A stretch of 63,110 nt of DNA, counting the filler, from Nemertoderma westbladi (lineage: Eukaryota > Animalia > Xenacoelomorpha): assembly GCA_032718475.1 (NCBI GenBank). It is 3 parts of 3 records of this genome, joined end to end, with 100 filler letters (N's around TTAATTAATTAA, not from the genome) between each part and the next. Parts side by side here need not be neighbours in the genome. Positions count along the whole stretch, not along the records: positions 24,122 to 54,967 come from JAUCBJ010008011.1; 2 more parts are not named here. One strand, given 5' to 3'. Below are positions 15,206 through 58,666 of this stretch, piece by piece. Position 1 is the stretch's first letter, and every line of letters starts with the position of its first letter. The notes below the pieces were generated by a model. It had not been told where the DNA came from and did not search any database. It saw only the letters and a list, made by a program, of their open reading frames with translations. Both the position numbers and the translations under genes were made by a program.

Positions 15206-15209
15206 AATA

Positions 15210-15540
15210 ATGAAGGTATGCTGAACATACGTGAGCGAGAGACTGAATCAAAGGCCTTGAAGAAGTCAACAAAGATAACAGCCACATAGATGCCTGTCTT
15301 TCTTTTTTGATTACTCTTCAATTATCCTTCTAAGTGCCAAAAGGGCTCCATGGTCCCACGACCTTTACGGAACCCATTCTGATTTCCACGGAGCAGTCTC
15401 TCAATGGGATCCCTGATGCGATTTAATATAATTCTATTGTATAGCTTTGCAGCTATCGAGATCAATGAGATTCCCCGAAAAGAACCATAGAGTGTTAGGT
15501 TGCCCTTCTTGGGAACTGGCACCAACTTATTTGTTTTCAG
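15210..15540 (-). pseudogene. RTE-clade reverse transcriptase fragment
   Basis: VPVPKKGNL..FRGISLISIAAKLYNRIILNRI..NQNGFRKGR, then after a frameshift VAVIFVDFFKAFDSVSR. Confidence 0.88.
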
Positions 15541-15570
15541 TTCTCGTGGGACTCTTGTTGTTCGTTACAT

Positions 15571-18500: not shown

Positions 18501-19050
18501 CATGTGGTGTGAGCGACGATAGAAGCTTTTAGTTGCATGTTATGTGAGCGACGATGTAAGCTTTCTGTTGCATGTGGTGTGAGAGACGATGTGAGCTTTC
18601 AGTTGCATGTGGTGTGAGCGACGATGTGAGCTTTCAGTTGCATGTGGTGTGAGCGACGATGTGAGCTTTCAGTTGCATGTGGTGTGAGCGACGATGTAAG
18701 CTTTCAGTTGCATGTGGTGTGAGCGACGATGTAAGCTTTCAGTTGCGTGTGGTGTGAGCGACGATGGAAGCTTTTAGTTGCATGTTATGTGAGCGACGAT
18801 GTAAGCTTTCTGTTGCATGTGGTGTGAGCGACGATGTGAGCTTTCAGTTGCATGTGGTGTGAGCGACGATGTAAGCTTTCAGTTGCATGTGGTGTGAGCG
18901 ACGATGTGAGCTTTCAGTTGCATGAGGTGTGAGCGACGATGTAAGCTTTCAGTTGCATGTGGTGTGAGCGACGATGTAAGCGTTCAGTTCCATGTGGTGT
19001 GAGCGACGATGTAAGCTTTCAGTTGCATGTGGTGTGAGCGACGATGTAAG
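15571..19050. repeat. 35-bp satellite (GAGCGACGATGTAAGCTTTCAGTTGCATGTGGTGT)n, ~99 copies
   Basis: Direct 35-bp periodicity (e.g. 16271 and 16306) with no spacers. The left edge is more degenerate. Confidence 0.98.
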
Positions 19051-24021: not shown

Positions 24022-24121
24022 NNNNNNNNNNNNNNNNNNNNNNNNNNNNNNNNNNNNNNNNNNNNTTAATTAATTAANNNNNNNNNNNNNNNNNNNNNNN
24101 NNNNNNNNNNNNNNNNNNNNN
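24022..24121. other. Scaffold gap with artificial six-frame-stop linker
   Basis: 100 bp of N with TTAATTAATTAA at 24066-24077; the same layout occurs at 54968-55067. Confidence 0.97.
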
Positions 24122-30085: not shown

Positions 30086-30488
30086 AGTGGGTGTCTGGGA
30101 TCCACAAGGGGGTGTAGGTGTGTGGGTGTCTGGGATCCACAAGGGGGTGTAGGTGTGTGGGTGTCTGGGATCCACAAGGGGGTGTAGGTGTGTGCGTGTC
30201 TGGGATCCACAATGGGGTGTAGGTGTCTGGGTGTCTGGGATCCACAAGGGGGTGTAGGTGTGTGGGTGTCTGGGATCCACAAGGGGGTGTATGTGTTTGG
30301 GTGTCTGGGATCCACAAGGGGGTGTAGGTGTGTGGGTGTCTGGGATCCACAAGGGGGTGTAGGTGTGTGGGTGTCTGGGATCCACAAGGGGGTGTAGGTG
30401 TGTGGGTGCCTGGGATCCACAAGGGGGTGTAGGTGTGTGGGTGTAGGTGTGTGGGTGTCTGGGATCCACAAGGGGTGTAGGTGTGTGG
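30086..30488. repeat. 35-bp minisatellite (TGTGGGTGTCTGGGATCCACAAGGGGGTGTAGGTG)n, ~11 copies
   Basis: Period 35 (30121 and 30156); unrelated in sequence to the 15.6-19-kb satellite. Confidence 0.96.
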
Positions 30489-31760
30489 CCTACCGTATAC
30501 AACCCAACTCTTATAACCGAATATGATATCCCATCATTTGTTCAGTAATGTAGGCCTACTCAGTACTGGTCGAATCAATGTCGTATTAATTAAGTGTCTT
30601 CATTGAATTTACAGTATCAATTATTATATATATATATATATAAATATTACTTGAAATTGAAAGTGAGAAAGATGGATGTGGATAGAGAGCTGACGGAATG
30701 TGGGCAGGACATTGTGCCTTATAGTGGACAAGCCAATGGGGAAAGTTGATTTAATTATATGTTACATCCATTGTGAAGAATAAAAGCAATTATTGCCGAT
30801 TTTCAAGATTACTTTGCTGAGCTGAAGTTGTAATTGTACGTGTTCATAACTGAAAACGGTACATCCGTTCATTAATTAGTGATAACAGGGATAATAAGTA
30901 GCTTTATAACAGACATTACGTGATGTTTCATACTAATTCAATTATAGGAATAGATCCTAAAAACATAGATAATATCACTGAATGAAACGTTCCGCAACCC
31001 TGGAGGCTGTATGTAGCTGCAGAAAATATTTACCGCGCCATAATAAATGCAAACACATGTTGCACAACTTCTCGTAGTAAATTGGATTTTCGTTGTAAAT
31101 CAAATTTATTTATGCCCAAAGTCTATAGTCTGGAACACAAATAATTATAATTGAATGTACTCCATTCCTTTTAATTTCATTTCACCAGAAATCTATTCAC
31201 CACCATCTTGGGTGATTATCCACAGTAAACCTTCCATTCTACAGTAGTTAGTTACCTTGGTTGTTCCATTGGTTTAACCAAATAAATTATGTAATCTTCT
31301 ATTATAGGTCATCAATTATTATAAATAGTAAAATTATTTATTAATACAAATGCAGTGTATTATTGTGTCTCGGAAATTCTAAATAAACACCCATTAAAGC
31401 ACATTGAAATCTAAGTATAAGTATATTATTATGATTATATTCACGTTTCTATTATTTTTTTTGTGTTCGTAATTACATGCCTTTGTAGCTCTGATATGAT
31501 ACCAAGGTGTATATTGTTTGTTTATTAAAGATAACTGTATGTTTACGATAAAAAACAACAATATCTTTATAATATGCAAACACAAACCATAGTACAGTTA
31601 GAGTATAAGACAATACTGTATATAGATACCGAAGTTTTGTATTTGAAAATATAACATAATATTAGAAAGCAATTAATATAAAGTAGTAGGTCAAATTAAC
31701 TGCATTTCTCTAACGAAATTATATATTTGAATGGGAGAATCTTTTAGGCTCGTTAAGCCA

Positions 31761-33339
31761 AGGAATGCCTGTTCACCACCATGGGTGATCTTCCACAGTA
31801 AACCCTTCCACTCTGTTTCCTAAAGGAATGCCTGTTCACCACCATGGGTGATCTTCCACAGTAAACCCTTCCATTCTGTGTCCTAAAGGAATACCTGTTC
31901 ACCACCATATGGGTGATCTTCCACAGTAAACCATTCCACTCTGTTTCCTAAAGGAATTCCTGTTCACCACCATAGGTGATCTTCCACAGTAAACAATTCC
32001 ACTCTGTTTCCTAAAGGAATGCCTGTTCACCACCATGAGTGATCTTCCACAGTAAACCCTTCTACTCTGTTTCCCAAAGGAATGCCTGTTCACCACCATG
32101 GGTGATCTTCCACAGTAAACCCTTCTACTCTGTTTCCCAAAGGAATGCCTGTTCACCACCATGGGTGATCTTCCACAGTAAACCCTTCCACTCTGTTTCC
32201 TAAAGGAATGCCTGTTCACCACCATGGGTGATCTTCCACAGTAAACCCTTCCACTCTGTTTCCTAAAGGAATACCTGTTCACCACCATATGGGTGATCTT
32301 CCACAGTAAACCCTTCCACTCTGTTTCCTAAAGGAATTCCTGTTCATCACCATGGCTGATCTTCCACAGTAAACCCTTCCACTCTGTTTCCTAAAGGAAT
32401 GCCTGTTCACCACCATGAGTGATCTTCCACAGTAAACCCTTCTACTCTGTTTCCCAAAGGAATGCCTGTTCACCACCATGGGTGATCTTCCACAGTAAAC
32501 CCTTCCACTCTGTTTCCTAAAGGAATACCTGTTCACCACCATATGGGTGATCTTCCACAGTAAACCCTTCCACTCTGTTTCCTAAAGGAATGCCTGTTCA
32601 CCACCATGAGTGATCTTCCACAGTAAACCCTTCTACTCTGTTTCCCAAAGGAATGCCTGTTCACCACCATGGGTGATCTTCCACAGTAAACCCTTCTACT
32701 CTGTTTCCCAAAGGAATGCCTGTTCACCACCATGGGTGATCTTCCACAGTAAACCCTTCCACTCTGTTTCCTAAAGGAATGCCTGTTCACCACCATGGGT
32801 GATCTTCCACAGTAAACCCTTCCATTCTGTGTCCTAAAGGAATACCTGTTCACCACCATATGGGTGATCTTCCACAGTAAACCATTCCACTCTGTTTCCT
32901 AAAGGAATTCCTGTTCATCACCATGGCTGATCTTCCACAGTAAACCCTTCCACTCTGTTTCCTAAAGGAATGCCTGTTCACCACCATGAGTGATCTTCCA
33001 CAGTAAACCCTTCCACTCTGTTTCCTAAAGGAATGCCTGTTCACCACCATGGGTGATCTTCCACAGTAAACCCTTCCATTCTGTGTCCTAAAGGAATACC
33101 TGTTCACCACCATATGGGTGATCTTCCACAGTAAACCCTTCCACTCTGTTTCCTAGAGGAATGCCTGTTCACCGCCATGGGTGATCTTCCACAGTAAACC
33201 ATTCCACTCTGTTTCCTAAAGGAATTCCTGTTCATCACCATGGCTGATCTTCCACAGTAAACCCTTCCACTCTGTTTTCTAAAGGAATGCCTGTTCACCA
33301 CCATGGGTGATCTTCCACAGTAAACCCTTCCACTCTGTT
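31761..33339. repeat. 63-bp satellite (~25 copies; 65-bp variants every 4-6 units), resuming at 45298-45371
   Basis: Unit AGGAATGCCTGTTCACCACCATGGGTGATCTTCCACAGTAAACCCTTCCACTCTGTTTCCTAA; continues in register after the LTR element. Confidence 0.97.
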
Positions 33340-34596
33340 TGTTCGCGCTTTCAGACCTTTGGCAGTTTAACCCGCCAAATTAGGATGTCTTCTAGATAAT
33401 AAATCGCTTTAGCCTCTAACAAGTATTTGATTCACTACACTAGTTGAAACCAATCTGTGCGCGATCATTCACCCGTTGGATATACCCGGGAGATTGATTT
33501 CGACAGCTTAATCTTATTGCTATGTAAGCCTAATGTATTATTCGACTGACAGTATTATATAATCTCTGACAATATTATTCACCTTCGGGAAATATTAACA
33601 GTTCCTTTAGGACGTGGCGCTCTATCTATATAAACAGAGTTATGACTTAAACTACTCACAACGATATGGCTTAGTTACAATTCACATATATGGCGCATTC
33701 TTTAGGAAATGCTTCGTTATCAGTCTCACTCATACACAATGCTGCACAATACTGCACACTGATCTGCCGATCTTCACTGATTTTAGTCACATATAAAAGG
33801 AACACGGACCGAATCATGTAGGGTCTATCAAATAACATTAGATTCACTTCAAACCACTTAACATAGGTCGCAATCATTTATCTGTAACCTTTCTCTCTTA
33901 CCTTCGGTATATCAAGAATATTGGGTTTTCGGGGTTATTTGTCGTTATTCCAAATATAATAATTCATCAACCATATTATGAAGAACTGACAGTAAATAGC
34001 AGTATAACAATATAAAGTATGCACAGTGTTACACAGTATGCAGTGTATGCAGTACTGCAGTATGCAGTATGCAGTATGCAGATAACGGATATATGTCCTT
34101 ATAATTAAGCCTACTAGTGTAGGGCTAAAGCAGAAAAGCACAAAATACTCCAAAGCCGTTCTTCCTGGCTTAGAATCACCAACAACACTGAAAAGAATAA
34201 CTATAAGAATACCAGCTACCCTTATTCCACGAAGCTCCCGTCCAACACAGAGAAAGAGCAGTGAGATAGGAAAATTCAGTTCAGTAGCTCTGTGATAGGT
34301 CAAAATCAAAGCCAACTCAAATCCTATTGGCAGATACAGAAAGCAGGGCTATGGGGCAACGTGGCAATATCAGCCGTTAGCCGTCGTCATGGTAGCGACA
34401 CTGTTTTCAAGAGTATCGAGCTTTTTACGTCACGAAATTACAGATTATGTTCTCTAAAGTACAAATACAGAAGAAATGGCTTTTATGTCCTCCAAAACAC
34501 CAGTACAGCAAGGACACGGCCTTTTTATGCCTGGTAAACCAACCACAGAGTACTTTACGGGGATAATAACCGGCTAATTACGCAAAAGCTTTTACA
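33340..34596 (-). repeat. 3' LTR
   Basis: TGTTCGCGC...TTTTACA; near-identical to 44041-45297. Confidence 0.97.
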
Positions 34597-37500
34597 CCGC
34601 TCCCAGAAAATGGGATTTAAGTCTATAAAATATAACAAATCACAGTTTCTAAAATATAAAGATACTCTAAACAGTTAGTCTTTCTTGCGCGGACGGCGTT
34701 TACGCAGTTTTTTAAAGTTAGCCAGAGTCTTTTTCTCTTTGGGGGGAGCCACTTTACTAGGAGGGCCATAACTCCTGGGTGAAGGGTGCAATATGATTGC
34801 ATTAGAAGGTTTGGGTTTACGGTCGGTGTCTCGTCCATTTCGATATGCTTCTCCTCGAGCTGATTTTCCTCCGCTTATCATGGGATACGTTCGTCCAAAA
34901 CTCTCGCAGAGAATAGGGTTTTCTAAGCTTGATATCTTCTTAGAGATTCGAGATTTCCCAATCGAACTGAGATAAGGCCAATTCGTTTATCGATTGGACT
35001 TACTGTTATAACTTACGTTTATCTGAACAAACGCAGGTTTCTTTTTTGATCTTTATAGAATAGCGTTTAACTCGTTTCGTACAACGCTCTCCTTCACCTT
35101 GATGAGGGGTTGTATCGCGTTAAACGGGGACGACCATACGGTTGGATAGTGATATTAGGTGTCCGCGTCACAATCCGGCTAGGTAAGATGGGCGGCTAGC
35201 TAGAAATCACTGTCGGAGTGTTACCGATTAATTGTTAGGGTAGCACTAGATCTTGAACAGTGAATACAGTCCACGAGGATCCGCGACACCACCAGGATCG
35301 CAGGTCTGAGGTCCAACTAAGGAATGAGGAGGTTTGACCGAGTATTCCGGGACTCTGATCGTAGGTTTACTCCCGGATCGTTCGAGCCGAGTGAGCATAG
35401 GTGATACGTCAACAAGTTTCGGTTTCCGTGGATGTTTATGTCTTTCCGTTTATTAGTTGGGTCTAGGGCATTTATCATAATAATACCAAAGACGCACGTC
35501 TGGTAAGGTAAACGCGGGTGATATTTATTTGTTGTTACAATGCTTCTATCAAGAATTCCAAATATACGTTGGAGTTACCGCGTCCATTTGTTTCTTTAGT
35601 GTCTTTTCTTTCGAGTCGATTTCGAATAGAATTTTCGCATTCGAATTTCAGTTTATGGTTCCGACTCCGCTGGGCAGGATATATAGTCGACATAGTCCGT
35701 ATTGTGTAAATCGATAGGATGATCAGTAGTTAAGAAGCCCATATACGTACCATTACGCTGCGTATATCGAGCAGCGAATTTTCTATAGTCCAACTCGCGC
35801 GAGCTGCTCTTGGGACATTGGCGGTTCGATATAACGACCATCGTCCTCCGCAGCAGTTGGGCTAACGTCGCCGCATATTAAGCTATCAACAAACGCTTGT
35901 AAAAGTAGAGTATATCGCTCCCCGATACCAAGACCATCTTCTATCAACTCCGTCATATCTGCTATATATGAGTTTATCCATATTATAATGAGTTTATATT
36001 TAGGCGAGCGGGCGTCGCTGCCTACCCCAATCAACCCCCGGACAGTACGAGATCCTCAGCGCCGATGTGTCGTCGCCGCTGTACTTTCGCCAACGACGTA
36101 GCCGCACAACGACAACGACAACCGGCACAAGTCACTCAACTGTCCGTCCCAAAGGCTTAGATGTACTTCAGGTTTTCCTTGGAGAGTTAGGTTACTTTTA
36201 CGATTGCGACTAGCTACTGTAAACACACCTTAGCAGTAACATTCACCTATAAACTCACAAATACCACACAACTGGTCACAACTACGCACATTCGGGCCAT
36301 TTGTCCGTTAGTCAATGCCTTCCAGAATGTCACTGTATTATTATGTATCCTTGGATACTAGTAGTGCGCTATTTATTCCCTATGCTATTCAATGGGACAA
36401 GCTTTCTATTGTTCTTTTAACTCAATTCTAATTCTAGCGTGGTTGTTGCTATGGTGACATTATGCAAAGCTAGCGGTAGAATTAGGGTAATTCCAATGCA
36501 TACAGATCTGGGATGTTATTTAATAGTATTCTTTAATAGTCAATGTTCTGTTTTATACATGACTTTATGAATTTTATCGGCTATTGACTATGTTTGGGAG
36601 ACTTCGCACACTCATACTCATAATAAGATAAATCTCCGCTCCCTTGATCTATTAATTAATGGAAATTTTGGGAATGTTATAAATTGCGTAAAAATGGCAA
36701 TTTATTAAATTCATTAAAAGGCATGAATTTAAATTATTCCCTGAAATTTTATTATTTGATAATTAAATGGACATGTTTTGATTCTAGAACATGGCTGGGG
36801 ACACAAGATCCTTAATTCTATGACAATTGTCTTTTTAAGAATATCGGTAAATGCTACGATATCTTAATTGACTAGAATTGCTGAAGGATCTGAATTTTAC
36901 AGATTTTGATTTATTAGATTTGCAAATATTAAATAATTAATATTTGAGATGGGCACCGATTTATTCCAGAACTTGTCTGGGGACGTTAACCACTGATTCT
37001 AGAATTTGTCTTTCAAGTATATCGGTGGGTGCCGCGATATCTTAATCGACTAGAATTACAGATGGTCAAAGGGTTTAACAGATTTATTTTGCGTTATACG
37101 CTACTGTTAAAGGGACATCACGCTACTATATGTATTATTTAATATACGGTATGAGAGCAATATCGCACGAAGCAATGTCAGTGTGAAGAGGCAAGTCGTT
37201 TCCAAGGTCTACCCAGAGCTTGGTTTAGCCGAGACACGAGGATCTGAACTTTGCATTCCTAATACTCTGCCTACCAATAATACTTGAATATAGTAGTGGC
37301 TTTATTGTACTTTAATAAGTACGGACATTTCATCTTACTGTAGTTACGTATTTGTAATGTAATACGGACAGTAAGGAAGAAGGAAAAGAATTATTTCTTG
37401 CCGTCGCACTAAATATAATATATACGTAATTACGTACGCAATAAACACGAATATATTGCACTATTCAACTAAATAATCGCTAAATAAGATTCTACTAAAT

Positions 37501-37603
37501 TAAATAAAACGATTATAATAAAATTACGTAGTAATACATACATAAATATAAAAATAATAAAATAATATAAAATAATAGAGTCACACACCCACTCCATATG
37601 TTG

Positions 37604-40600
37604 TTACGTTATGGAGTCCCTAGATGTTTGAAGGATTAGGGAGGTGGTCGTGGGAAGAGAATCTTGCCTTCCACAGTTTCCGGAGAGTCCTCCATTCCCT
37701 TCCGGTAAACACAAACGACCAGCTGGGCGATTGAGTCGCTGCATCCCGAATACAATTCCAGGTTTCCTCTTCGTCCTGGAATAGTGACGATAGAAACATC
37801 GCTCTAGGTACACGACGGCCTTACAAAGCCGATTCCAGGAGCTATAGTGGTCCGTCGCTCCCTGCAGGAGAGGTGAGAGTCCCTGCGAGACGTCTGATGT
37901 TCCAGAGCTCCAATCGCTCTCTCTGATTTTCATGAAGGATCCACTCGCGGTGGGGAGGTCCAGATCCACGGCGTCGTCCCTGGCAATATGTAATACCGAC
38001 AGATCTATCCCGGGTTCAAATAACTCCGATCCACCCGTCCGGGTTTTAGGTTTGACTTTCTCCGCTCCCTTGGCTGGTCTAATCTCAGTCGGAGTAAGAT
38101 GGGGAGGCCATTCATCCTCCTTACTCAGGAAGTCGGGTTCACCTAACCGGTCTGTAGTATCTGTCAGTTCTTGAGGAGTTGCTCCTCTGGAAGCGATGTC
38201 GGCTATATTCATCGTCTTGGGGCAATATCTCCATTGATCTACATTGGAGTTAAGATTGTCATTATCTGAGGAGTGTGGTGTTCCCTCAGTTGGGTCGTCT
38301 CCCTCACTAGTATCGTCTTCCCATTCACTCACCTGGCAGACGCGATCTTGAAGCAGTCTTTCCCTGAGCGTTCTACGGGAAGGTCCAGTAAGGTACCAAC
38401 CTACTCTAGTTCTTACCGCATAGGTCTGAAGTGGTTGCGGTTGAGTAGGTCGTTTCTCTAATGTCTCCAGCGCCTCATGCGCGTTTTGGCCGATGAGTAT
38501 TTGCACTCCAGGATAATCAGTCTGGAATCGAGGTATCTTAAGATGTTGGATGCTCTCATCCTCGTCCCAATTATAAAGGTCTGCTTGAGTAGTAGCGAAG
38601 TTCTTTATTGCCACCATTTTGACTGACCTTATACTGTGTTCTCCTAGTTTATCCTGTGGAGTGGACAACTCACCTATATAATAGTCGGCAGCCACAGCAG
38701 ATTTCCAAACCTGCATGATCCCTGACATGTTTAGCTTGGTTCGGAACTTGGGTTGTCCAGCAAAGATGTCTTCGGCTAGTTCTTTATCGATGAATGTTCC
38801 TGTGCTGCCGGAGTCCAGGAGGGCGTTCACTATATAGCTCTTCTGAGGTCCGTGGACCCGTAACTGGACTACAGGAAATTCTCGGATCCCTATAGTGGAA
38901 GTTGGCGCTTTCCAAGATGGTTGTTGATCGGAAGTAGTTAAGGTAAGGTCGCTGTCTGTATCTTTTTCATGAGTGAGTGCTCGATACACTGCGGTATTTA
39001 TCATGTAACAGGATTCGTTTTCGTCGGAGAACTCGTCCGTATAGAATCCTTCCATCTCAGATTGATCAGTGTCGTTCACATCACTGAATTGGACATGTAG
39101 TTCGGACTCACTTACCTGACTCGGGCTGTTTCGTTCGAATTCCGTGTGCAACAAGATATGATGTTTTGCGCCGCACTTTGCACACCTTGCGTCGGAGTAA
39201 CAGGTTCGCCGTTGGTGTCCTCGTCTGAGGCAATTATAACACAACCGCTTATCCCACATGACTTCACGTCTATCCTTTAGTGATTTCCTCAGGAATTTAT
39301 CACACGCATTTAAACAGTGGGGCCCGTCGCACAGCACACATTTCGGCTTGATGTTACTTACTTTAACCTGTGCTATGTGGTGCACACTTGTTCTTTCCTC
39401 GGGCTTTCTCACCTGAATTCTTTTAGGAGACGTAGGAAGGGTTTTTTGTACCGGTTCCCTTCTGTCATTGGGTCGAGACTCGGATTTACTTACCTGATCT
39501 TTAGGCATTTTATTGACATAATAAGATCTGTCAGTGTCTTTCCCGCTGTCCTCTCCTTGAGAAGTTTGGCTTTCACCGTCGTTGGTATAACATACTGGTG
39601 TTACCCTTCTCCTAGAAACGGGTTTCTCACTTACCTTACTTTCCGCTGTCTTCTCTCTGGACTGCTTTATGAGCTGTAATTTCACCTCGCTATCCAAGAA
39701 TGACATGAGATCAGCCATGGTAGGGTCTCGTTGTTGTTGTTCCATCATATATAACACCTTCTTGTCCCAGCGTGTACCTACTCCACCCTTGGGCAAAGTA
39801 GATGCTAAGGCTCCTACAACCATAGAATTCTGGTATTCATGAGACTTACCTAACCAATCTAGTTGTCTACAGATCTCCTGAATCTCATCGGAAAACTCTA
39901 TAATCCCGCTGCTAAGAAACTTTTGGGGCGCCATTAATTTCGCATATAAATACCTAGCTATGTTAGTCCTATTACCATACCTGATGTTTAGTGTATCCCA
40001 AACTTGTCTTAATCCATCTGGATGTCCAATAAATTTTAACGCCATTGACTTGGGAGATCCTTCCAAGCACTCGATGAGGTATCTAAGTTTTTCTCCATTA
40101 GATAGTACAGAGTTCTGTATGTTATCTTTGTAATATTCATTAAAAGGTAACCATTTCATCTCATCTCCATTGAACTTGACGATCTCTCCCACCTTTACCG
40201 CTTGCCGGGCTTCGGTTCTAGCCATTTGACGCGTAAAACTTTCTTGGGCCATCGTGTTATTTAATATCGAGTTATCGGTATATAAATTTCTCGGATTATG
40301 ATCAGTTCTATAGGGAATGTCATTATCAACAGGTCTATAATTACCCTTAATAGGGTTCACTATAGGAGTTACTACTTCGCTAGCAGTATAGATGCGTGTA
40401 GGCTCCACACCTTGCGCATGCGATACTTCAGACCTAACAGGTTGACACATTGTTACAGAGGGTGGTGGTATACCCTTTTGAGTATTTACTAATTTATCGC
40501 GTTCTAGCGCGATACTTTGCTGCACTTCTTGCAACTCTAGCCTACTTTCCCTTACTGTGCCCTTGAATTGCTGGACAGTCTCCTGCATCTGCCCGAGCAG

Positions 40601-41708
40601 GATATCCATCCCCCGCCGTCTCTCGTCCACCCATTCGACCGCCGAAGCGGGAGTCGCCAACGTTGTAGCGGGCGGACGAGGGACAACGGGCGACAAATCA
40701 TGAATATTTCGCTCGGGGTCCAGGACTTGAACTGTCTCCTGGGCAGTTCTACTGGGCACAGGTAGCTTAGTGCTATGCAGAGGGAATTTAGAGGTAGTCT
40801 CAGGGAGCACAGGTGTGTCTATCACCGAAGGGGTGATTTCAAGAACAGGCCTAATTATTTCAGGCTCATCTACTATAGTAGGGAGTCTTTCTATTTTAAT
40901 TATTTGGTCTGTGGGCTCTGTACTACCTAAGTTGGTGTTATTTAGTTGCCTTCTAACAGCTGGAGGCAAATCAGGCAATTTCTGACGGTGGAATGTTCTT
41001 TTACGTCTGCTTAAACGAGATCTATTTCCTTTGCCTTCAGTATCGGTGGTATCGCCTTCCTCAGATGATGTATATCCCTGTCTTTTGGGAGTAGATCGAT
41101 TCATCATCTGCATATTACTAGCTGTTAACTGTTTATTTATGCAGTCTTGATTCTCCTGAATGTTTTCCAATTCTAATTGGATGGTTTCTTCAGCCGCCCT
41201 CCGTTCTGCTTCTGCTACTGCTATTTTTCTTTCCGCTTCGGCCGCAGCTGCCGCCTTTGCCTCTGTCGCTGCCGCTTCTGCCTCTGCCGCTGCCGCTTTT
41301 GCCTCTGCCGCTGCCTCTGCCGCTGCCGCTTTTGCCTCTGCCGCTGCCTCTGCCGCTTTTCTATCCGCTTCTGCCGCTGCCACTGCCGCTGCTGCTGTCT
41401 TTCTATCTTCTATCCGTTTTTTTCTTTACTTGTTCTTCTTGGACTCGTGTCAGGCGGAGTTGTTCATCAAATTTAGCCTGATTCGCAGCCCTCATTTCCA
41501 CATCGATGGCATCCAACACAAGCTTGGTTCCCTCACTATTAGGGCTAAGTCCCTCTAACCTTCTCCTCAACTCGTCATTACCTAAAAAACGTTGATAGTC
41601 TGACAGATAGATGTCAATGGCATCCCTCTTATGCGGTTTCTCTGCTGTCACTTCGCTCTCGGTTGTATCTAGTAGACTGTCTGACAGGTTCTGCTTTGCG
41701 TCAGACAT
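37604..41708 (-). CDS. BEL/Pao Gag-protease polyprotein fused to an RNase H C-terminal remnant; one frameshift in an A7 run near 41420
   Basis: KFNGDEMKW..EKLRYL..LEG (DUF1759-like), triple Cys/His knuckle CVLCDGPH..CYNCLRRGH..CAKCGAKHHILLH, ALLDSGS protease, then directly WRYCPKTMNIADIASRG. Removing one A joins ORF 41403-41708 to ORF 37604-41383. Confidence 0.9.
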
Positions 41709-43199
41709 GCTTATGTGTACAGTTGAATGTCTACTGCTGTATTACAGTCTGAGCAAGTCTAGTAACTCAGTATTAACTGCTAGCCTAGTAATTAATTACC
41801 GGTACTACTACTCAGTGTAGCGTGGTATATATAATATATTAGAATACCGGTATGCTTATAGTATATATAACTATTATTACAGACTAGGTTTATCACAGAA
41901 TACCGGTATAACTTTAGCACAAATATATATAAATATATAATAGGCCTATCGGGAATACCGGTATACAGCTTACAGTTTGTAGTATATATAATTCTGGACT
42001 AGAATTAATTACAAGTACCAGTATAATTTCAGCCTAAATTTATAGAAATAAAGATAATAGGCCTATCGTAAATACCGGTATGCAGTTTACACTTATAGTG
42101 TATATATATAAGTATAATTACAAACTAGAATTAATTACAGAATACCGGTATGATTTCAACCTAAAATTTATAGAAATAAATATAATAAGCTTATTGTAAA
42201 TACCGGTATATCAATTATTTTAAATAACTGAATTTCTGAATTTCAAGGGTTACTTGGTTACTTACTTACTTTATTGCCGTTATTTAAGCAGTAGTCCAAC
42301 TGATATTGAGACCTAATGGTTGTATGGTAGGCCTACGATTTATAAATCGTTAGATTTGATTTATAATATATATATACCCGTTTAATGGGTTTTGTCAATG
42401 TTGAAATAAATGTTATTATTTCTGGGGTAATCACTACACAAAGCGGTACGCTTTCAGTGAAGTGTTACTTATAGGACACTAAAACAAATAATTCTAATTT
42501 ACCTAAGTTACTTAATACTACAAATTACGTACAATTCGGGTGAGATTACAATCTCTAAATAAACACAAAAATTTACAAAAACACAAAAATACGAATTTTT
42601 TAGGGTAATTTTACAAGAAGTCTACAAACCAGCCTAACAAAGGGTTAGAATTCTGGTTATTACAACGGACAGGGTACTACGGTATTTGAAATAATAAGTA
42701 GTAGTAAATATACTGCGTTGTCCAGATAGAAAAATACCACCGCCTGACGACCTATAGCCGTATCGCTATAGGTTCTACGTTATGTATCACGGAGTGTTCC
42801 TACCTAGAAGTTAATAGAGCTAATCGAAAGTGCCTATCAACCACTTTACAACACAAATGTAATGCCTACACTAATTACTTTCGGAAAGCAATGTACACTA
42901 AACCCTAAATTAGGTACGAGTACTTGTATAACATATAATCTGTAGTTAAATATACTTGAACAGCTAAAAGAACCACGGCATCTGCTGGAGTGACCGATGC
43001 ACAAAATCACCAGTCTTTACCTACGCCAAGCAGCCCGTGTAGTACCGGGGTTAATTTAACTATAGCGGTATGTATAACAAACACAATTACTGTAGGAACA
43101 AACTTGGGGAATGAATGTTGCGGATAATCGCATAAACTCTGAATAATAAATATTACGCTACGCGTACAAACTACTCAAACAAAATGCAGACCGAACACT

Positions 43200-43715
43200 G
43201 ACAGACTACTATCAAGCCTAAACAAACCACGGTATATGCAGACTCCGAAATAATTAGGTAGTATGCGTTCTAACCCAGTAGTACGACTTATTCTTTAGTT
43301 GGGGGTTTACCTTACAGCATTCGCTGCCCCTACTTCCTAACAGTTCTTTATCGGACAAGTGATCTACACACGCTGCAATCCGTTCAGACCCAATAACAGC
43401 CAGACAACTATCCAGCCTACAAATTATCTAAATAAATATTATACGCTACCCATACAGACTTACACAAACAAAGTACAGACTAAACGATGGCAGACTACTC
43501 TCAAGCCTAAATAAACTACAGGACATGCAGACTCCGAAATGATTAGGTAGTATGCGTTCTAACCCAGTAGTACGACTTATTCTTTAGTTGGGGGTTTACC
43601 TTACAGCATCTGCTGCCCCTACTTCCTAACCGTACTTAATCGGACAGGTGCTCTACACACACTGTAATCCGTTCAGACCTAACAGCAATCAGACAACAGC
43701 TCAGCCTACAAATTG
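43200..43715. repeat. ~290-bp direct duplication in the BEL 5' leader
   Basis: CAGACTACT.TCAAGCCTAAA...GGTAGTATGCGTTCTAACCCAGTAGTACGAC at ~43202 and ~43491. Confidence 0.9.
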
Positions 43716-44040
43716 TCTGTACAATCTGATCAGGCTTACACGCCTTCTGTTCAATACTGGCCTACAAACAAATAAAACTTGACAGAAATAAGTAAAATCT
43801 CAATAAAAACCAGGCGTCCCCGATTAATTATTAAGACCTACCGGCATATATAATCAAATCGAATAATACTGCTGTACTTATACTGGAAGTACCGGTTAGG
43901 ACAGTTGGGCCTACGGACCTACAGAAGTACCGGTTCTGGCAGTTGGGCCTACTGACCTACAGATGTACCGTTCAGGTTTACCGGTTGACCGGTACTTTCA
44001 ACTTTATTGCTTACTGCAATAAAGAAGCTATATCCGTTAT

Positions 44041-45297
44041 TGTTCGCGCTTTCAGACCTTTGGCAGTTTAACCCGCCAAATTAGGATGTCTTCTAGATAA
44101 TAAATCGCTTTAGCCTCTAACAAGTATTTGATTCACTACACTAGTTGAAACCAATCTGTGCGCGATCATTCACCCGTTGGATATACCCGGGAGATTGATT
44201 TCGACAGCTTAATCTTATTGCTATGTAAGCCTAATGTATTATTCGACTGACAGTATTATATAATCTCTGACAATATTATTCACCTTCGGGAAATATTAAC
44301 AGTTCCTTTAGGACGTGGCGCTCTATCTATATAAACAGAGTTATGACTTAAACTACTCACAACGATATGGCTTAGTTACAATTCACATATATGGCGCATT
44401 CTTTAGGAAATGCTTCGTTATCAGTCTCACTCATACACAATGCTGCACAATACTGCACACTGATCTGCCGATCTTCACTGATTTTAGTCACATATAAAAG
44501 GAACACGGACCGAATCATGTAGGGTCTATCAAATAACATTAGATTCACTTCAAACCACTTAACATAGGTCGCAATCATTTATCTGTAACCTTTCTCTCTT
44601 ACCTTCGGTATATCAAGAATATTGGGTTTTCGGGGTTATTTGTCGTTATTCCAAATATAATAATTCATCAACCATATTATGAAGAACTGACAGTAAATAG
44701 CAGTATAACAATATAAAGTATGCACAGTGTTACACAGTATGCACTGTATGCAGTACTGCAGTATGCAGTATGCAGTATGCAGATAACGGATATATGTCCT
44801 TATAATTAAGCCTACTAGTGTAGGGCTAAAGCAGAAAAGCACAAAATACTCCAAAGCCGTTCTTCCTGGCTTAGAATCACCAACAACACTGAAAAGAATA
44901 ACTATAAGAATACCAGCTACCCTTATTCCACGAAGCTCCCGTCCAACACAGAGAAAGAGCAGTGAGATAGGAAAATTCAGTTCAGTAGCTCTGTGATAGG
45001 TCAAAATCAAAGCCAACTCAAATCCTATTGGCAGATACAGAAAGCAGGGCTATGGGGCAACGTGGCAATATCAGCCGTTAGCCGTCGTCATGGTAGCGAC
45101 ACTGTTTTCAAGAGTATCGAGCTTTTTACGTCACGAAATTACAGATTATGTCCTCTAAAGTACAAATACAGAAGAAATGGCTTTTATGTCCTCCAAAACA
45201 CCAGTACAGCAAGGACACGGCCTTTTTATGCCTGGTAAACCAACCACAGAGTACTTTACGGGGATAATAACCGGCTAATTACGCAAAAGCTTTTACA
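44041..45297 (-). repeat. 5' LTR
   Basis: Copy of 33340-34596; I noticed only two substitutions (near 44744 and 45152). Confidence 0.97.
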
Positions 45298-45371
45298 CTG
45301 TTTCCTAAAGGAATGCCTGTTCACCACCATGGGTGATCTTCCACAGTAAGCCCTTCCACACTGTTTCCCAA

Positions 45372-45535
45372 GTTGCCTTAGTTCCCATTTATCGACCAGT
45401 TAGGATGAAAGCCAGGGTTGGGCTAGGCTGCAGCATTTAAAGCACTGGTCCCAAACAGTGCTGCCCCATCTAGGGATCGAACCAGTGCTTCCTGATTGGG
45501 AGCCCAGGAATGTCACCACTAGACCAAGCTGCTGC
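45372..45535 (-). mobile_element. tRNA-derived SINE head and conserved body; its 3' part is the 63-bp satellite and ends near 31730
   Basis: Box A TGGTCTAGTGG (45516-45526) and Box B GGTTCGATCCC (45473-45483) on the minus strand, then GGCTTTCATCCT..GGTCGATAAATGGGAAC, resembling a conserved SINE central domain. Confidence 0.8.
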
Positions 45536-45774: not shown

Positions 45775-47150
45775 CAAGAGTGGGTTGGTTCAGCCCCGTC
45801 AACTAAATAAGTCATTGAGGGCTATAGTGCCTAGGGCACCATTGAAGGCAAAGGCTTGATACGCATCTGCATTAGAGATGATACAAGCCCCGCCCTGTCT
45901 ATACTGGATGCTCCTGTTAGGTAACCTAACCCAGGAGGCACACTTGGTTCAGGGTGTAACAAATGGACCCCTACAGTCGGCAGCAGGGCTGTAGGCCATG
46001 GATAGGCGGAAGGTAATCAACCAACGGCTAGACATGCTGACAAGGTCGGCGGAAGGTAATCAACCAACAGCGACCTACTGTGAAGACGCTTGTAGGAGTT
46101 GCGACCACAAGCGGTTTACTCCCGCAACTGAAAGATATGAGTATGAGAACCCTCCAGGAGAAATACCGGCTCGGTCGTCGCCCGGGTCAACAAGGACCGC
46201 GTCCCTCAGTGGTACACCAGGCTGGGGTCGATAAATTGGCTACTGGAACAGAAGACAGAGAAGAAAGAAGAACCAACCTGTTGAAATGTAAAAAGACACT
46301 AAAGATTGCTACAATGAACGCACGCACGTTGAAAGCACAGAGCAAACAGGGTGACATGGTCGCTCTGGCAATGGAATATAACATCGACATCATCTGCATC
46401 CAAGAACATCGGATTTGTCACGAAGACACTGCCATGAAGTACAATGACATTGGAAATGGATGGACGTTAGTAACAAGCTCAGCAGTAAGAAACTCTGCCA
46501 ATGCATTAATTGGTGGAGTAGGAATTCTGCTAAGCCCATTTGCACTTAAGACCCTAAACAACATCGAATCTATAAATTCCAGGGTTATGATCGCAACATT
46601 TGATGGGAATCCCAAGACAACAGTTATATGTTGCTACAGTCCAACCAATGCATCAGAGCCAGAACAAGCAGTCAAGTTTTATGAAGAACTGACTGGACTT
46701 ATTAAGGACATCCCGAAACACAATGTTAAAGTCATTGCTGGTGACCTGAATGCGCAAATTGGCCCAGAAGACATCAAGGGTTACACCTATAACACCAGTT
46801 CTAACAGGAATGGGTACTTACTGTACTTTTAGACCTAATGGAAGAATGTGAATTGATACCAACAAACAACACATTCGAAAAGAGTAAGGGGAAGCTATGG
46901 ACCTTTCAATACCCTAATGGAACCAAAGCACAACTGGATTACATCCTTATAAACAAAAAGTGGAGAAATAGCATGATCAACTGCGAGGCATACAGCTCGT
47001 TCAACCTAATTGGTTCGGACCACAGAATTGTGACTGCAGAGATCAGACTCAGTTTGAGAGCCAGCAAACCCAGGACAAGCAAGCAAATCAACTATGACTG
47101 GGAGAAACTCAGAACTGACAATGCTGTAAAGGATGCTTATACAGTAGAAG
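45775..47150 (+). mobile_element. 5' part of an RTE-clade LINE (5' UTR + APE endonuclease), frameshifted near 46825, 3' part missing
   Basis: IATMNARTL, ICIQEHR, GGVGILL, CYSPTN, AGDLNAQIG, QLDYILI, GSDHRIV. Confidence 0.92.
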
Positions 47151-49331
47151 AGATTACAAGAGATTACCTGTGGTGTACCGCAAGGTAGTATATTAGGTCC
47201 TCTGCTTTTTGTATGCTATGTAAATGATATGATAAGTAGTATAGATCCCGATTTTAAACTCATTTTATATGCCGACGACAGTGCTCTTATTTTCTCTCAT
47301 AAAGATCCTATTCATATTTCCCAAAAGTTAAGTGCAGTTCTAGAATCCTGTAATGAGTGGTTGGTTGATAATAAGCTATCCATTCACTACGGTAAGACTG
47401 AAAGTATTTTGTTTGGTTCCAAAAGAAAGTTAAAGAAGGTAATTAAGTTTGAAGTCACTAGTAATGGACATGAGATTGAAAATAAAAAGGAAGTTAAATA
47501 TTTAGGCGCCACATTGGATAACTGCTTATCAGGAGAAAGTACAGTGAAAAATATTTTCTCGAAAGTTAACAGTAGGCTTACGTTTCTATACAGAAATAAA
47601 AATAGTTTGAACACCGACTCCCGCAAGTTACTTTGCTCTTCTTTAATACAGTGTCACATGGACTACAACATGCTCTTCTTGGTATGAAGGCTTAACCAAA
47701 CAGCTTAAATGTAAATTACAAGTAGCTCAGAATAAAGTAGTACGATTTATTAAAGACTACAATCCTAGGCACCACCTAACTCCAGATGACTTTTCTGAAT
47801 CTGGACTACTTAACTTAGATAGTAGAGTTAAGCAGCTACGCCTTAACCATGTGCATAAAGTGTATAATGGTAAATGTCCCAATTACATAAAACAAAAATT
47901 CAACAGAGTACGTGATTTTTTTTTATCAACGATTAAATATAATTATATAGCGCTTTTATTAATTCAACTATGAAACACTATTAATAAATGAATGGCACTG
48001 TTTTGAAACAAATAGCTAATAAAGGCCACTGAACTGTTACACTTGAATGATATTAATGGATAATTTCTTTATAATTAACATTAAAGGGGAGTTAGGGAGA
48101 GGGGTACATCTCCCTGTCCAAATCCCTGACTCCCGCCCCGTCCCCGAACCCCAGACCCCTCCAGGGCCTCCTTCCACCGCGGAAGCACAGAGAGTTTGCC
48201 CTTAATAAGGCGAACTGCAGTCGCCTTCTCACAGCCCCAGGACTGCTCCCAACCCCCGCTGCCTCATCCCCGCCCTCCTCACCACCAGTGCGTCCGCGAG
48301 GTGGCGGATGAATTTCTCGCCCTCGGCGCCCCAGACTCCGTCGGTGGAGCACACGAGGGGGGTGAAGTTCATCCGCCTCGACTCACAGGGCTCCTGGTAG
48401 TGGGCCTTCTTCTCGCGTTCTTTCTGTGAGAGAAGGGTCTCCACAGAGCGGTTTGAACGAACGTAGGAGGTGGCGTCGACATTAATTACAGCGATATCGA
48501 AAGACGCCACCACCTGATTCGTCCAAACCCCCCTGGTGACCAGGTCAGCCCGAACCCCCCCAACCGTCGTCCCCTCCGAGTCCAGGTGCCCATTCCGCAG
48601 CACAACCTCCCGCTCTACGTTCGAGTTCCCGTACGCCTCTGCGAGGAGGTCCCCAAACACGTCACGGATCTCGTTGTGACGGCGGGTGATCAACCCTCCA
48701 ACCTTGCAACTGAGGGCGTGTGACGTGTCGAATGGCACGTAGTAGACACAGAGTTCGTGATACACACTCTTATACTGTAGTACCAGAGCTAGTGCTTCAA
48801 ACTTCTACCTCCCGAATTGTAAATCCTTTGAATCTGTTACTTTCTTTTTTAACGGCATTAAAAATTGGAACGCTCTGCCTAATGAAATTAAAAACCTAAA
48901 TAATCAACATTCTTTTAAATCTGCAGTTAAATCTCACCTCCGTGTGCAATGTAAAAATAGGTACAATAGTCCTACAGTAAGTTATTAGTTTATTAATTAT
49001 TTACTATTTATACTGTAATTACGTTTTAGAATAAATTGTTCTGTACATTACATTTTTATCGTTGAGTCGGACATTGTCACGCTCTCGGTAAAGCTGTACA
49101 TGTACATAGTGTAATTACGTTTTATATTGGTTTTAGGTTAGCGTAGTGTAATATTGTATTTGTAACCAAGTAACATAAAGGACCCCCTTGGAAATAAGCT
49201 GCAAAGCTTTAGGGGTAATCCTATATGTTATGTTGGACAATACCATTATACCGGTACATTGTTTGGTGTATTTGTTATTGTTTTTTACATAATGTATAAA
49301 TAAATCTATCTATCAATCTATCTATCTATCT
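47151..49331 (+). mobile_element. 5'-truncated CR1-group (Crack/Daphne-like) LINE with (TCTA)n tail
   Basis: CGVPQGSILGPLLF..YVNDM, LYADDS, KYLG, NWNALP; 3' UTR ends AATAAATCTATCTATC (49298-49331). Interrupted by the CRE copy. Confidence 0.88.
47917..48747 (-). mobile_element. 5'-truncated CRE-like non-LTR element (restriction-like endonuclease domain)
   Basis: HALSCKVGG..RRHNEIRD..RADLVTRGVW..FDIAV..EKKAHY..FTPLVCSTDG; AATAAA plus poly(A) on the minus strand; 14-bp TSD ACAGAGT(A/T)CGTGAT at 47903-47916 and 48748-48761. Confidence 0.88.
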
Positions 49332-54967: not shown

Positions 54968-55067
54968 NNNNNNNNNNNNNNNNNNNNNNNNNNNNNNNNN
55001 NNNNNNNNNNNTTAATTAATTAANNNNNNNNNNNNNNNNNNNNNNNNNNNNNNNNNNNNNNNNNNNN
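54968..55067. other. Scaffold gap with artificial linker
   Basis: 100 bp of N with TTAATTAATTAA at 55012-55023. Confidence 0.97.
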
Positions 55068-56600: not shown

Positions 56601-57883
56601 AATGAGATTATAGATTTATCTATGTTTTTTTTTCTATTTATCTATCGCTCCCTGCTGTCTTGGTTACTATTAATAACAGAGTGTATTATTAACTATTTCT
56701 TGTTGCAGTTACCTGATATAGGAAATTACCTAATATAAGGTATTTTTTATACTAGCTATAAAATAGTATGCTCGTTAACATGTTAGGTATTATTTTTATA
56801 ATTATATTACATTTTTTTAAATAGTTCTAAATTAATATATTAGCTAGTTTTTGTTATTTTATATTGGTATTCTAGAACATGTTTGCTGGTATATAAAAAT
56901 GTTCCAGAATTTTTTTCTGTAACCTTTTTAAGAGGTCTAGAACATAGTTCTAGAATTTTTGTATATCGTGAACAAAACATACAAATATAAGAAATGGCCA
57001 ATATTATCTATTATACATCTTGTTAAGTAATCAATAAATTTAACAATAAAACAACATATTATATTGTGTAAATAATGTAGCTTTATCTCACTTCGGTCCA
57101 TCGTTTCAATATTTCACTCACTCGCTCCGACCGATGAAATCACCGACCAGGAAAACCCCTATGTCGGAATTTTTAGGCAGGTGATGTACTTATTTATTTT
57201 TTACAACCAGTTTGAATAATCTCTCATTTTTTTATAAAAAATGGCGGGAAGCTTTGAACATTTTGAATGTTTTTTTCTCGAAAAGTAATTTTTTGTGTTT
57301 TTTTTAGACACAAAGGTACACTTTTCTGAGGAACTACTGAATGAAATCTCATGATATTTTTAGGAAATGTTCACAACAACGATTGGCCTATGCATGACTA
57401 GAATTTTGTAGGTTGGAGCGGTGGAGAGTGTAGGTGGAGAGATTAAGAAGTTATTAAGAAAACAGTTGTTGAAATTTCGATTTTTGGTCAAAAACCGAGC
57501 ATTGTTTACAAAAGTTGCCGTAAACAAAAAAAAATTTTTTTTAGTCTTGCTCTTGTCCGAATGGTTGATACAGCTACCTGAAAAATTTCAGAAAATTAAC
57601 TTAAGAAAATCTTAGAGTACCCTTCAACCTTAAGTAATCCAGAAATTAAGCAACATTATATATTGTGTATGGTGTACCTTTATCTCACTTCGGTCCCTCA
57701 TTTCAATATTTTACTCACTCGTTTCGCTCGTTCGTGTAGATATTAACACTCGGGACCGGCGTGATATAAAGTGTTACATTATAGGCCCACACAATATAAA
57801 AAAATAGTTATTATTTTAGTATATTTTTTAAGTTTAATTCATAACTTTTTGTCGTCAAATTAAAAATAAGAAATAATAATAAG

Positions 57884-58666
57884 ATGAAGAATAATATGAT
57901 TGGAAAGGAAGTCGGATCTGGAAGAGACAGACGGGTCTACCTCTTCGAGACTGTAGTGCAGCCTGGTCTGGCCGAGTTCTTCGGTACAATGATGTTCGTC
58001 ATAGTCGGGTCTCTCAGTGTAACTTCGGGTAGTCCTGTTGGCCCAGCATTGGGGTTCGGCATATCCATCGCATACTTAATCATGTCTATTGGTAAGATCA
58101 GCGGTGGTAGCTTCAACCCGGCAGTCAGCGCCGCTTTAGTTTGGACTCGTCAGCTGTCTCCAGCTATGGGCCTTGTTCATCTTATCGCGCAGCTGCTAGG
58201 CTCTACCGTGGGGGCTGCTTCTGTGTATGCTGCGTTGCCAAGTGATGTGTACACAGCAATCAGTGGCGGCAGTGTAGCACCGAACCCGTTGATGAAGGAA
58301 ATGCAAATATTTTACGTGGAGATGCTTCTCACGATGGTTTTGGTGTTTGTCGTTCTCTGCGTGGCTGTAGATGAGAAATACAGTCTGGGTAACGGTGTCG
58401 CGGGTCTCGCCATAGGGTTCACCATAGTTGTCCTGATATTGGCGAGTGCCAATCTATCAGGTGGAGGAATGAATCCAGCCAGAGTTTTTGGTCCAGCGCT
58501 CATCGCCAACAGGTGGGAGTACCACTATATGTATTGGTTGGGCCCCCTAGCGGGATCTATGTGCGCCACACTCCTCTACAAAATCCTATTGGCTGCAACA
58601 CCGCGACGAATCATTTTCAAACATGAAGAAGATAAAAATATTACGGTTGTTACGGTATTACGGTAA
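57884..58666 (+). CDS. Aquaporin (MIP family), AQP8-like, single exon
   Basis: 260 aa; AEFFGT, ISGGSFNPAVS, AQLLGS, VEMLLT, GLAIGF, SGGGMNPARVFGPA, YWLGPL; six hydrophobic segments. Confidence 0.95.
   Translation: MKNNMIGKEVGSGRDRRVYLFETVVQPGLAEFFGTMMFVIVGSLSVTSGSPVGPALGFGISIAYLIMSIGKISGGSFNPAVSAALVWTRQLSPAMGLVHLIAQLLGSTVGAASVYAALPSDVYTAISGGSVAPNPLMKEMQIFYVEMLLTMVLVFVVLCVAVDEKYSLGNGVAGLAIGFTIVVLILASANLSGGGMNPARVFGPALIANRWEYHYMYWLGPLAGSMCATLLYKILLAATPRRIIFKHEEDKNITVVTVLR

What the first reader, a model, noticed from the sequence alone, without database searches (positions are those of the whole stretch)
44029..44795. BEL/Pao element without a tRNA PBS: the PBS position is complementary to its own LTR (Tf1-like self-priming?)
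Seen: on the coding (minus) strand the 5' LTR end ...GCGAACA is followed immediately by ATAACGGATATA (44040-44029), not by TGG. Its perfect 12-nt complement TATATCCGTTAT lies inside the LTR (44794-44783), preceded by a CA dinucleotide that could be an initiator (+1 at 44795). A hairpin CTTTATTGC-ttact-GCAATAAAG (44002-44024) sits just beyond the PBS. Established: Tf1/sushi-group Ty3/gypsy elements prime minus-strand DNA by pairing the first ~11 nt of the transcript with the PBS, whereas BEL/Pao elements are normally described as tRNA-primed. Inference: this lineage may self-prime, with a ~750-nt R-U5. The intact TSD and near-identical LTRs show this copy did transpose recently.
Basis: partly seen in the sequence, partly recalled or inferred. 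Interest (0 to 1): 0.82.

Follow-up and report, generated by a model that had tools for sequence, protein, structure and literature searches.

The report
Self-priming signature in BEL/Pao retrotransposon
A young, cut-down BEL/Pao jumping gene has no tRNA landing site; that position instead holds 12 bases that pair exactly with a stretch of its own terminal repeat, and distant relatives keep such pairing with different letters, so it likely starts copying itself with a piece of its own RNA, which textbooks do not describe for this group.

Summary
Observation confirmed. The element (33340-45297, minus strand) has 1257-bp LTRs differing at 2 sites and a 5-bp target duplication. It keeps Gag and protease but lacks reverse transcriptase and integrase, so it needs a partner to move. 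The 12 bases after the 5' LTR pair perfectly with LTR 44794-44783 (1 of 5000 shuffles); the first TGG lies 228 nt away. All 6 related families with a fixed LTR end show a 10-15-nt own-LTR complement with different letters, four across a predicted splice junction; 3 TGG-type BEL elements show none. Against: two common PBS variants in this family had no visible compensating LTR change (inconclusive), no RNA data were found, and the start site may lie further upstream. Best reading: Tf1-like self-priming (0.72). The scan reported the same signature earlier in other genomes; my literature searches found none for BEL/Pao.

The parts
44041..45297 (-). 5' LTR, 1257 bp, TG...CA
   Evidence: flank junctions at 44041
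33340..34596 (-). 3' LTR, 2 differences from the 5' LTR
45298..45302 (-). target-site duplication AACAG, upstream copy
33335..33339 (-). target-site duplication AACAG, downstream copy
44029..44040 (-). primer-binding-site slot, 12 nt, no TGG; two common variants in the family at 44040 and 44036
44783..44794 (-). LTR-internal perfect complement of the slot (candidate self-primer), LTR positions 504-515, 742 nt before the LTR end
34082..34093 (-). same complement in the 3' LTR
44795..44795 (-). A 13 nt before the predicted primer end; candidate +1 or copying stop; A at this place in 17 of 19 elements
44797..44803 (-). possible second helix with 44025-44019; out-competed by the leader hairpin in folding
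44002..44024 (-). leader hairpin, 9 bp, just after the slot
44735..44782 (-). 7-nt tandem repeat (6.4 copies) directly after the candidate primer; copy number varies in the family
44597..44605 (-). strong 5' splice-donor-like site AAG|GTAAGA, 180 nt after the candidate primer; untested
34597..34604 (-). purine-rich tract (GGGAGCGG) abutting the 3' LTR, PPT-like
41403..41708 (-). 101-aa ATG frame at the head of gag; ends in a stop, in another frame than the long ORF
37604..41425 (-). 1273-aa open frame: DUF1759 Gag, zinc knuckles, DSG protease, then only an RNase H C-terminal scrap; RT and integrase absent
31760..33340 (.). 63-bp minisatellite that received the insertion (continues at 45298-45371)

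Best explanation
This is a recently inserted BEL/Pao LTR element without reverse transcriptase or integrase, whose primer site pairs with 12 bases of its own LTR, and it likely primes minus-strand DNA with a fragment cut from the 5' part of its own RNA, using enzymes likely supplied by an unseen autonomous partner. Shown: the structure, the missing enzymes, the complement, and the same layout with other letters in relatives. Inferred, in order: (1) transcription starts at A44795 or within about 35 nt upstream; (2) 44794-44783 folds onto 44040-44029; (3) the partner's RNase H cuts near 44783/44782, as in Tf1, freeing a 3'-OH; (4) RT copies about 742 nt of R-U5 and jumps to the 3' LTR; (5) plus-strand synthesis copies the primer back into the PBS, which would keep the match exact and explain why the slots of spliced relatives match exon-exon junctions. 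Whether A44795 is the capped first base (Tf1-like; about even odds) or an unpaired stop point in a longer primer is open.
For: Non-chance 12-nt match at offset 0; it meets the criterion Neumann et al. used to predict self-primers (10 nt or more, 0-5 nt after the LTR; PMC6317226 passage). No TGG for 228 nt; no tRNA-like RNA in the element. Helix probability 0.74-1.0 for RNAs starting at 44795-44830. Relatives: 6 of 6 families with an LTR end fixed by repeats have a 10-15-nt own-LTR complement (0-25 of 1000 shuffles each); own-LTR matches are 10-15 nt against 4-10 nt for swapped LTRs; 3 of 3 TGG elements give 3-5 nt. A blind scan re-found the site in 3 of 3 sister loci and in 4 of 5 new families (0, 1, 3 and 6 of 60 shuffles). 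A at -13 in 7 of 7 and 10 of 12. The window protein falls beside this clade (93/80); 91 of its 150 best hits are nearest to it.
Against: In this family two PBS letters differ from the window in 53-74% of laid depth (44040 and 44036), and the compensating LTR changes are not among the 40 of 80 rows shown; if the LTR site is unchanged in those copies the duplex weakens from -13.3 to -7.3 kcal/mol. Coverage beside the 7-nt repeat is about 10-20-fold lower and the tallies hold one unplaced change of each needed kind in X1 and X3 (chance about 0.14), so this is inconclusive. No RNA reads, start site or cut were seen. The helix vanishes in folds starting at 44860 or further upstream. The 742-nt R-U5 is far longer than in the six fixed-end relatives (86-278 nt). 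In a further blind scan only 2 of 20 families were significant alone. The tree placement is a long branch without a starred node; a smaller tree joined it to P0003 instead (AU p 0.083). No TATA box lies about 30 nt before 44795.
Confidence: 0.72

Rival explanations
1. The primer is the element's own RNA but comes from the 3' LTR copy (34093-34082) at or near the RNA's 3' end, not from the 5' end.
For: The same 12-mer is in the 3' LTR. TATAAG at 44804 would put a start near 44775, leaving the site in U3 and so only in the 3' copy. The second helix seen in relatives could then form without a long 5' extension.
Against: No canonical AATAAA or ATTAAA in the LTR; the only listed variants are AATAAG at 44927 and 44219. 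A cut there would remove the repeat needed for strand transfer (inference from the retroviral scheme). Folding favours the 5' copy pairing in cis.
Confidence: 0.1
2. The pairing is real but regulatory (packaging, dimer or translation switch), and a host RNA primes at a site not recognised here.
For: A hairpin competes for the neighbouring leader bases. Common PBS variants may be uncompensated. Host tRNAs could not be searched because no genome is held.
Against: The helix sits exactly at the slot, 0-4 nt after the LTR, in all 7 fixed-end elements, is 10-12 nt in 6 of them (15 in one), and differs in sequence between families, which one host RNA could not serve. No TGG site is near.
Confidence: 0.12
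3. The match in this copy is chance or a one-off copying accident, and the family is primed by a tRNA fragment.
For: One other 12-nt complement exists among 9414 internal positions. The window's PBS letters appear to be the minority in its family at two places. The element is a long branch, not inside the self-complementary clade.
Against: 1 of 5000 shuffles. The geometry (offset, length, A at -13, A at -2) matches relatives; L078 shares even the GACA-TA start and the GCTT after the slot.
Confidence: 0.06

Closest known systems
Tf1/Tf2 (S. pombe), Tj1 and the Tf1/sushi group of Ty3/gypsy elements
   Same: No tRNA site; the PBS is complementary to about 11 nt inside the element's own 5' LTR. 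For Tf1 the first 11 bases pair with the PBS and RNase H cuts between bases 11 and 12 (PMC7175516 passage; Tj1, PMC4600332 passages). Tf1's PBS also begins ATAAC (PMC11042837 passage), probably a coincidence.
   Different: BEL/Pao Gag and protease, not a chromovirus; non-autonomous; R-U5 of about 742 nt; the complement may not be the first bases of the RNA; relatives build it across an LTR intron and often add a second helix.
Predicted self-priming plant lineages Tcn1 (Ty3/gypsy) and TAR/Houba/Osr-1 (Ty1/copia)
   Same: Predicted from the same sequence signature (PMC6317226 passages).
   Different: Other superfamilies, in plants; no animal BEL/Pao element is named in those passages.
Belpaoviridae (BEL/Pao) as described by ICTV
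   Same: TG...CA LTRs, DUF1759 Gag, protease followed by an RNase H remnant, PPT, animal-type host.
   Different: ICTV gives an 18-nt PBS complementary to tRNA-Arg or tRNA-Gly and tRNA-primed replication (PMC8742986, whole text). This element has none, and is 12 kb with RT and integrase missing.
GalEa copia Conserved Hairpin Site and bivalve biv-TRIM
   Same: No PBS; a 9-bp hairpin near the LTR end (PMC6934838 passages).
   Different: Here the slot pairs with a site 742 nt upstream inside the LTR; the hairpin lies after the slot.

Membership tests
BEL/Pao (Belpaoviridae) | BEL-type Gag and protease | tested here: met
   DUF1759 E 1e-13; Atlas hits 0.91-0.96 with DUF1759/DUF1758; full-length hits carry PF05380
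BEL/Pao (Belpaoviridae) | LTRs, target-site duplication, PPT | tested here: met
BEL/Pao (Belpaoviridae) | RT, RNase H and integrase present and grouping with BEL/Pao | tested here: not met
   only an RNase H tail remains; a deletion derivative, not an autonomous member
BEL/Pao (Belpaoviridae) | 18-nt PBS for tRNA-Arg or tRNA-Gly | tested here: not met
   no TGG for 228 nt; ICTV text
Self-primed LTR elements (Tf1-type mechanism) | PBS complementary to 10 nt or more of the own 5' LTR, 0-5 nt after the LTR | tested here: met
   12 nt at offset 0
Self-primed LTR elements (Tf1-type mechanism) | the complement is the 5' end of the transcript | tested here: inconclusive
   no raw RNA reads; conserved A at 44795 and folding fit; 4-6-nt exon parts and the second helix in relatives do not
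Self-primed LTR elements (Tf1-type mechanism) | RNase H cut releases the primer | not testable with these tools
   needs RNA-end or particle data
Self-primed LTR elements (Tf1-type mechanism) | PBS and primer change together | tested here: inconclusive
   met across 6 of 6 families; not shown within this family
Tf1/sushi group (lineage) | Ty3/gypsy chromovirus proteins | tested here: not met
   proteins are BEL/Pao
Named BEL/Pao lineage (Sinbad, Suzu, Pao and others) | grouping with named reference elements | not tested
   no named references were in hand; a Sinbad/Suzu-like label for the neighbouring clade is recalled from motifs only

The most novel reading that the evidence does not exclude
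A whole branch of animal BEL/Pao retrotransposons has dropped tRNA priming for a self-primer with fixed geometry: about 11 paired bases, an unpaired A 13 nt from the primer end, often a second helix, and in many families a primer that exists only after host splicing of an LTR intron. This element is a deep-branching, intron-less, high-copy non-autonomous member, and its PBS is a DNA record of the primer.
Probability: 0.55. Interest if true: 0.8.

Novelty: new variant of a known kind. Interest (0 to 1): 0.62.

Why it matters
BEL/Pao is formally described as tRNA-primed and its replication as poorly understood (ICTV). A self-primed branch would be a further origin of tRNA-independent priming, in a third LTR superfamily. 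It would explain why such elements fail PBS filters in annotation, and would free them from control through host tRNA or tRNA fragments. The spliced relatives would tie reverse transcription to host splicing. The predictions are precise to the base (a start at or just above 44795, an RNA end near 44783, a strong-stop DNA of about 742 nt plus primer), so existing cap and RNA-end data could test them.

Tried and rejected
No genome is held for the window, so host tRNAs, other copies and the autonomous partner could not be searched. No RNA holder on record was listed; all four runs laid were contigs, which cannot show starts or ends. The exact LTR-end pattern found 0 matches in metagenome contigs. 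Three scans of viral contigs gave no confirmed BEL locus but one 27-residue match, L001, which I did not use. Word-indexed protein searches gave only remote hits; the full scan gave no relative above 38% identity among its best 150. A splice-junction primer in the window itself was tested and rejected: 5 nt with real splice signals, 576 of 1000 shuffles. A self-encoded tRNA-like primer was not found: Rfam gave one sub-threshold hit (28 bits against 78) and ARAGORN none. The second helix is not supported in the window alone (80 of 1000 shuffles; probability 0.04 or less). The U5 hairpin at 44081-44058 is not above chance (z -1.04). An m6A-motif reading of the conserved A was dropped: several families have CAA or GAT there. 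L039 was dropped because its LTR end is ambiguous; L018 gave no hit; 26 families lacked upstream DNA. A TGG search in families with undefined ends was uninformative. The search for Cer7 returned only unrelated papers.

Full report
1. The observation. On the minus strand the 5' LTR runs 45297-44041 and the 3' LTR 34596-33340; both are 1257 bp and differ at 2 sites. AACAG is duplicated on both sides, inside a 63-bp minisatellite. The 12 bases after the LTR (44040-44029) are the exact reverse complement of LTR positions 504-515 (44794-44783). The match occurs only in the two LTRs. One of 5000 dinucleotide shuffles of the LTR reached 12 nt, and 2 of 9414 internal start points reach 12 nt against the real LTR, one being this slot. 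The first TGG is at 43812. The hairpin at 44024-44002 folds better than 199 of 200 shuffles.

2. What the element is. The long frame (41425-37604) has a DUF1759 Gag domain, zinc knuckles and a DSG protease motif; the Atlas's best clusters are DUF1759/DUF1758 proteins. Full-length BEL/Pao polyproteins match only Gag, protease and an RNase H tail: about 600 residues of P0006 between protease and that tail, and the integrase, have no counterpart in the window. A 101-aa ATG frame at 41708-41403 ends in a stop in another frame. The copy is therefore non-autonomous. Contigs from three studies of organism A cover all 30 bins, with thousands of variant contigs, so the family is large. No relative above 38% identity was among the best 150 of 11,825 hits.

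3. Relatives. Two scans fetched 85 BEL/Pao-like loci: 8 from genome contigs and 77 from metagenome contigs (the best 80 of 435 confirmed stretches; the scan stopped after 29 of 64 parts). The LTR 3' end was fixed by a repeat with differing flanks in 9 loci; a tenth, L039, was ambiguous and dropped. Three (L006-L008, P0006-like) have a TGG site and only 3-5 nt of own-LTR complement. The six others (L004, L033, L048, L067, L068, L082) have no TGG and a 10-15-nt own-LTR complement starting 0-4 nt after the LTR, reached by 2, 0, 3, 25, 2 and 0 of 1000 shuffles. Own-LTR matches were 10-15 nt, swapped matches 4-10 nt. In four of the six the best match spans a predicted GT-AG intron in the LTR; I tested this after earlier scan notes suggested it. 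A blind scan of 8 loci with a known LTR start re-found the site in 3 of 3 sister loci and gave 10-11-nt spliced matches in 4 of 5 new families (0, 1, 3, 6 of 60 shuffles), none in L018. In 20 further families without known ends only L078 and L080 were significant alone, and 26 families had too little upstream DNA. These loci were picked with a query from one clade, so they do not measure how common the trait is in BEL/Pao.

4. Geometry. I lined up the 7 fixed-end elements (set A) and 12 families whose best blind hit was 10 nt or more (set B; most not significant alone, L080 left out as close to L082) on the predicted primer 3' end. A stands at -2 in 17 of 19 and at -13 in 7 of 7 plus 10 of 12. 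The base before it is a pyrimidine in only 8 of 19, so it is not a uniform initiator. Flanks beyond the perfect helix also pair: 45 of 5040 partner permutations in set A, 11 of 20,000 in 10 set-B families, where L049 dominates, and 279 of 20,000 with shorter flanks. In spliced families a start at -13 would leave a first exon of about 6-8 nt, which is unusually short (own knowledge). Both points suggest a longer primer RNA in the clade. In the window itself the second helix loses to the leader hairpin, while the 12-bp helix has probability 0.74-1.0 for starts at 44795-44830 and 0 for starts at 44860 and 44890. I leave the two start models at about even odds.

5. Placement. On Gag, protease and RNase H tail the window is a long branch. 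A 31-row tree joined it to P0003 with a long-branch warning; grouping it with the self-complementary clade was not rejected (AU p 0.083). With 20 of its best hits added it fell beside that clade (93/80, unstarred), apart from the TGG group (99/99). Of its 150 best hits, 91 are nearest to that clade. No named lineage was tested.

6. Result against the reading. In the second read-laying (44000-44830; 40 of 80 difference rows shown) two slot positions differ from the window in much of the family: 44040 in 66, 53 and 74% and 44036 in 69, 64 and 74% of depth in X1, X3 and X6. The matching changes at 44783 and 44787 were not shown, and the one X6 contig over the site lists none. The tallies leave one unplaced change of each needed kind in X1 and X3 (chance about 0.14), and depth beside the 7-nt repeat falls about 10-20-fold, which favours contigs like the window. 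The test is unphased and inconclusive. If those copies keep the window's LTR site, their duplex drops from -13.3 to -7.3 kcal/mol, and the re-templating step would be in doubt.

7. Mechanism. Most likely (0.72) the RNA folds 44794-44783 onto the slot, a partner's RNase H cuts near 44783, and the freed fragment primes about 742 nt of strong-stop DNA; plus-strand copying of the primer would rewrite the slot each cycle. Only the structure, the complement and the cross-family pattern are shown. Rivals: a regulatory helix with a host primer (0.12), a primer from the 3' LTR copy (0.10), chance (0.06).

8. Known systems. Tf1 uses its first 11 bases and an RNase H cut (PMC7175516, passages); Tj1 is similar (PMC4600332, passages); a downstream start site makes Tf2 RNA unable to support reverse transcription (PMC5341516, passages). 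Self-priming is predicted for plant Tcn1 and TAR elements by a criterion this element meets (PMC6317226, passages). ICTV describes Belpaoviridae as tRNA-primed with an 18-nt PBS (PMC8742986, whole text). The element works like Tf1 by signature but is not a Tf1/sushi member; it is a BEL/Pao derivative that fails the tRNA-PBS feature. Nine searches listed no paper whose title or abstract start reports self-priming in BEL/Pao. Term look-ups for primer, PBS, tRNA and self-priming gave no occurrence in PMC3118150 and PMC554778; passages of PMC3601003, PMC6934838, PMC13524379, PMC8220671, PMC5443660 and PMC11042837 did not mention it. Subscription papers, Repbase reports and supplements were not seen. 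I recall, unverified, that C. elegans Cer7 was proposed to encode its own tRNA-like primer, a different arrangement. The scan's own notes hold at least ten similar BEL/Pao reports from other genomes; they are unchecked and not counted as evidence.

9. Verdict. A real feature and a new variant of a known kind: a self-priming signature in a superfamily described as tRNA-primed, backed across families, unproven in this one. Interest 0.62.

Noticed in passing
L033, L042, L045, L048, L060, L068, L082, L084 (5' or 3' LTRs): The slot after the LTR matches a predicted exon-exon junction of a 119-426-nt GT-AG intron inside the LTR, with 4-6 nt on the first exon's side.
   Followed up: partly
L078:5' region: Intron-less 12-nt own-LTR complement with the same GACA-TA start and GCTT follow-on as the window, though the middle letters differ.
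   Followed up: partly
L002-L009: BEL/Pao loci sit in contigs filed under bacterial or archaeal MAGs; they look like host eukaryote DNA binned by mistake.
   Followed up: no
window 45440-45530: tRNA-like head with A-box and B-box-like motifs on the minus strand just upstream of the minisatellite; possibly a SINE that carries the 63-bp array. ARAGORN calls no tRNA.
   Followed up: no
window 41700-44000: 2.3-kb leader with a 289-bp duplication (43145-43718), a 128-bp repeat (41862-42210), a 38-bp repeat and many ACCGGT palindromes.
   Followed up: no
window 34597-37604: 3-kb stretch after the ORF with no ATG frame of 75 aa or more; laid contigs cover it throughout, so it belongs to the family.
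   Followed up: no
window 37733-38060: Other copies skip about 320 bases here (joints in runs X1, X3, X4, X6), so the family holds further internal deletions.
   Followed up: no
window 57845-58666: Uninterrupted 273-aa aquaporin frame (Pfam MIP E 3e-48; best solved relatives aquaporin-4); intron-less, first NPA reads NPA, second NPA present.
   Followed up: partly
window 11014-15317, 46041-47687: LINE-type elements: a 1213-aa endonuclease-RT frame with an upstream frame, and broken pieces of another.
   Followed up: no
window 24022-24121, 54968-55067: Two assembly gaps written as 44 N, TTAATTAATTAA, 44 N; the apparent 100-nt inverted repeat is this artefact.
   Followed up: yes
window 15460-19000 and 30087-30488: 35-bp satellite arrays, about 99 copies in the first.
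   Followed up: no
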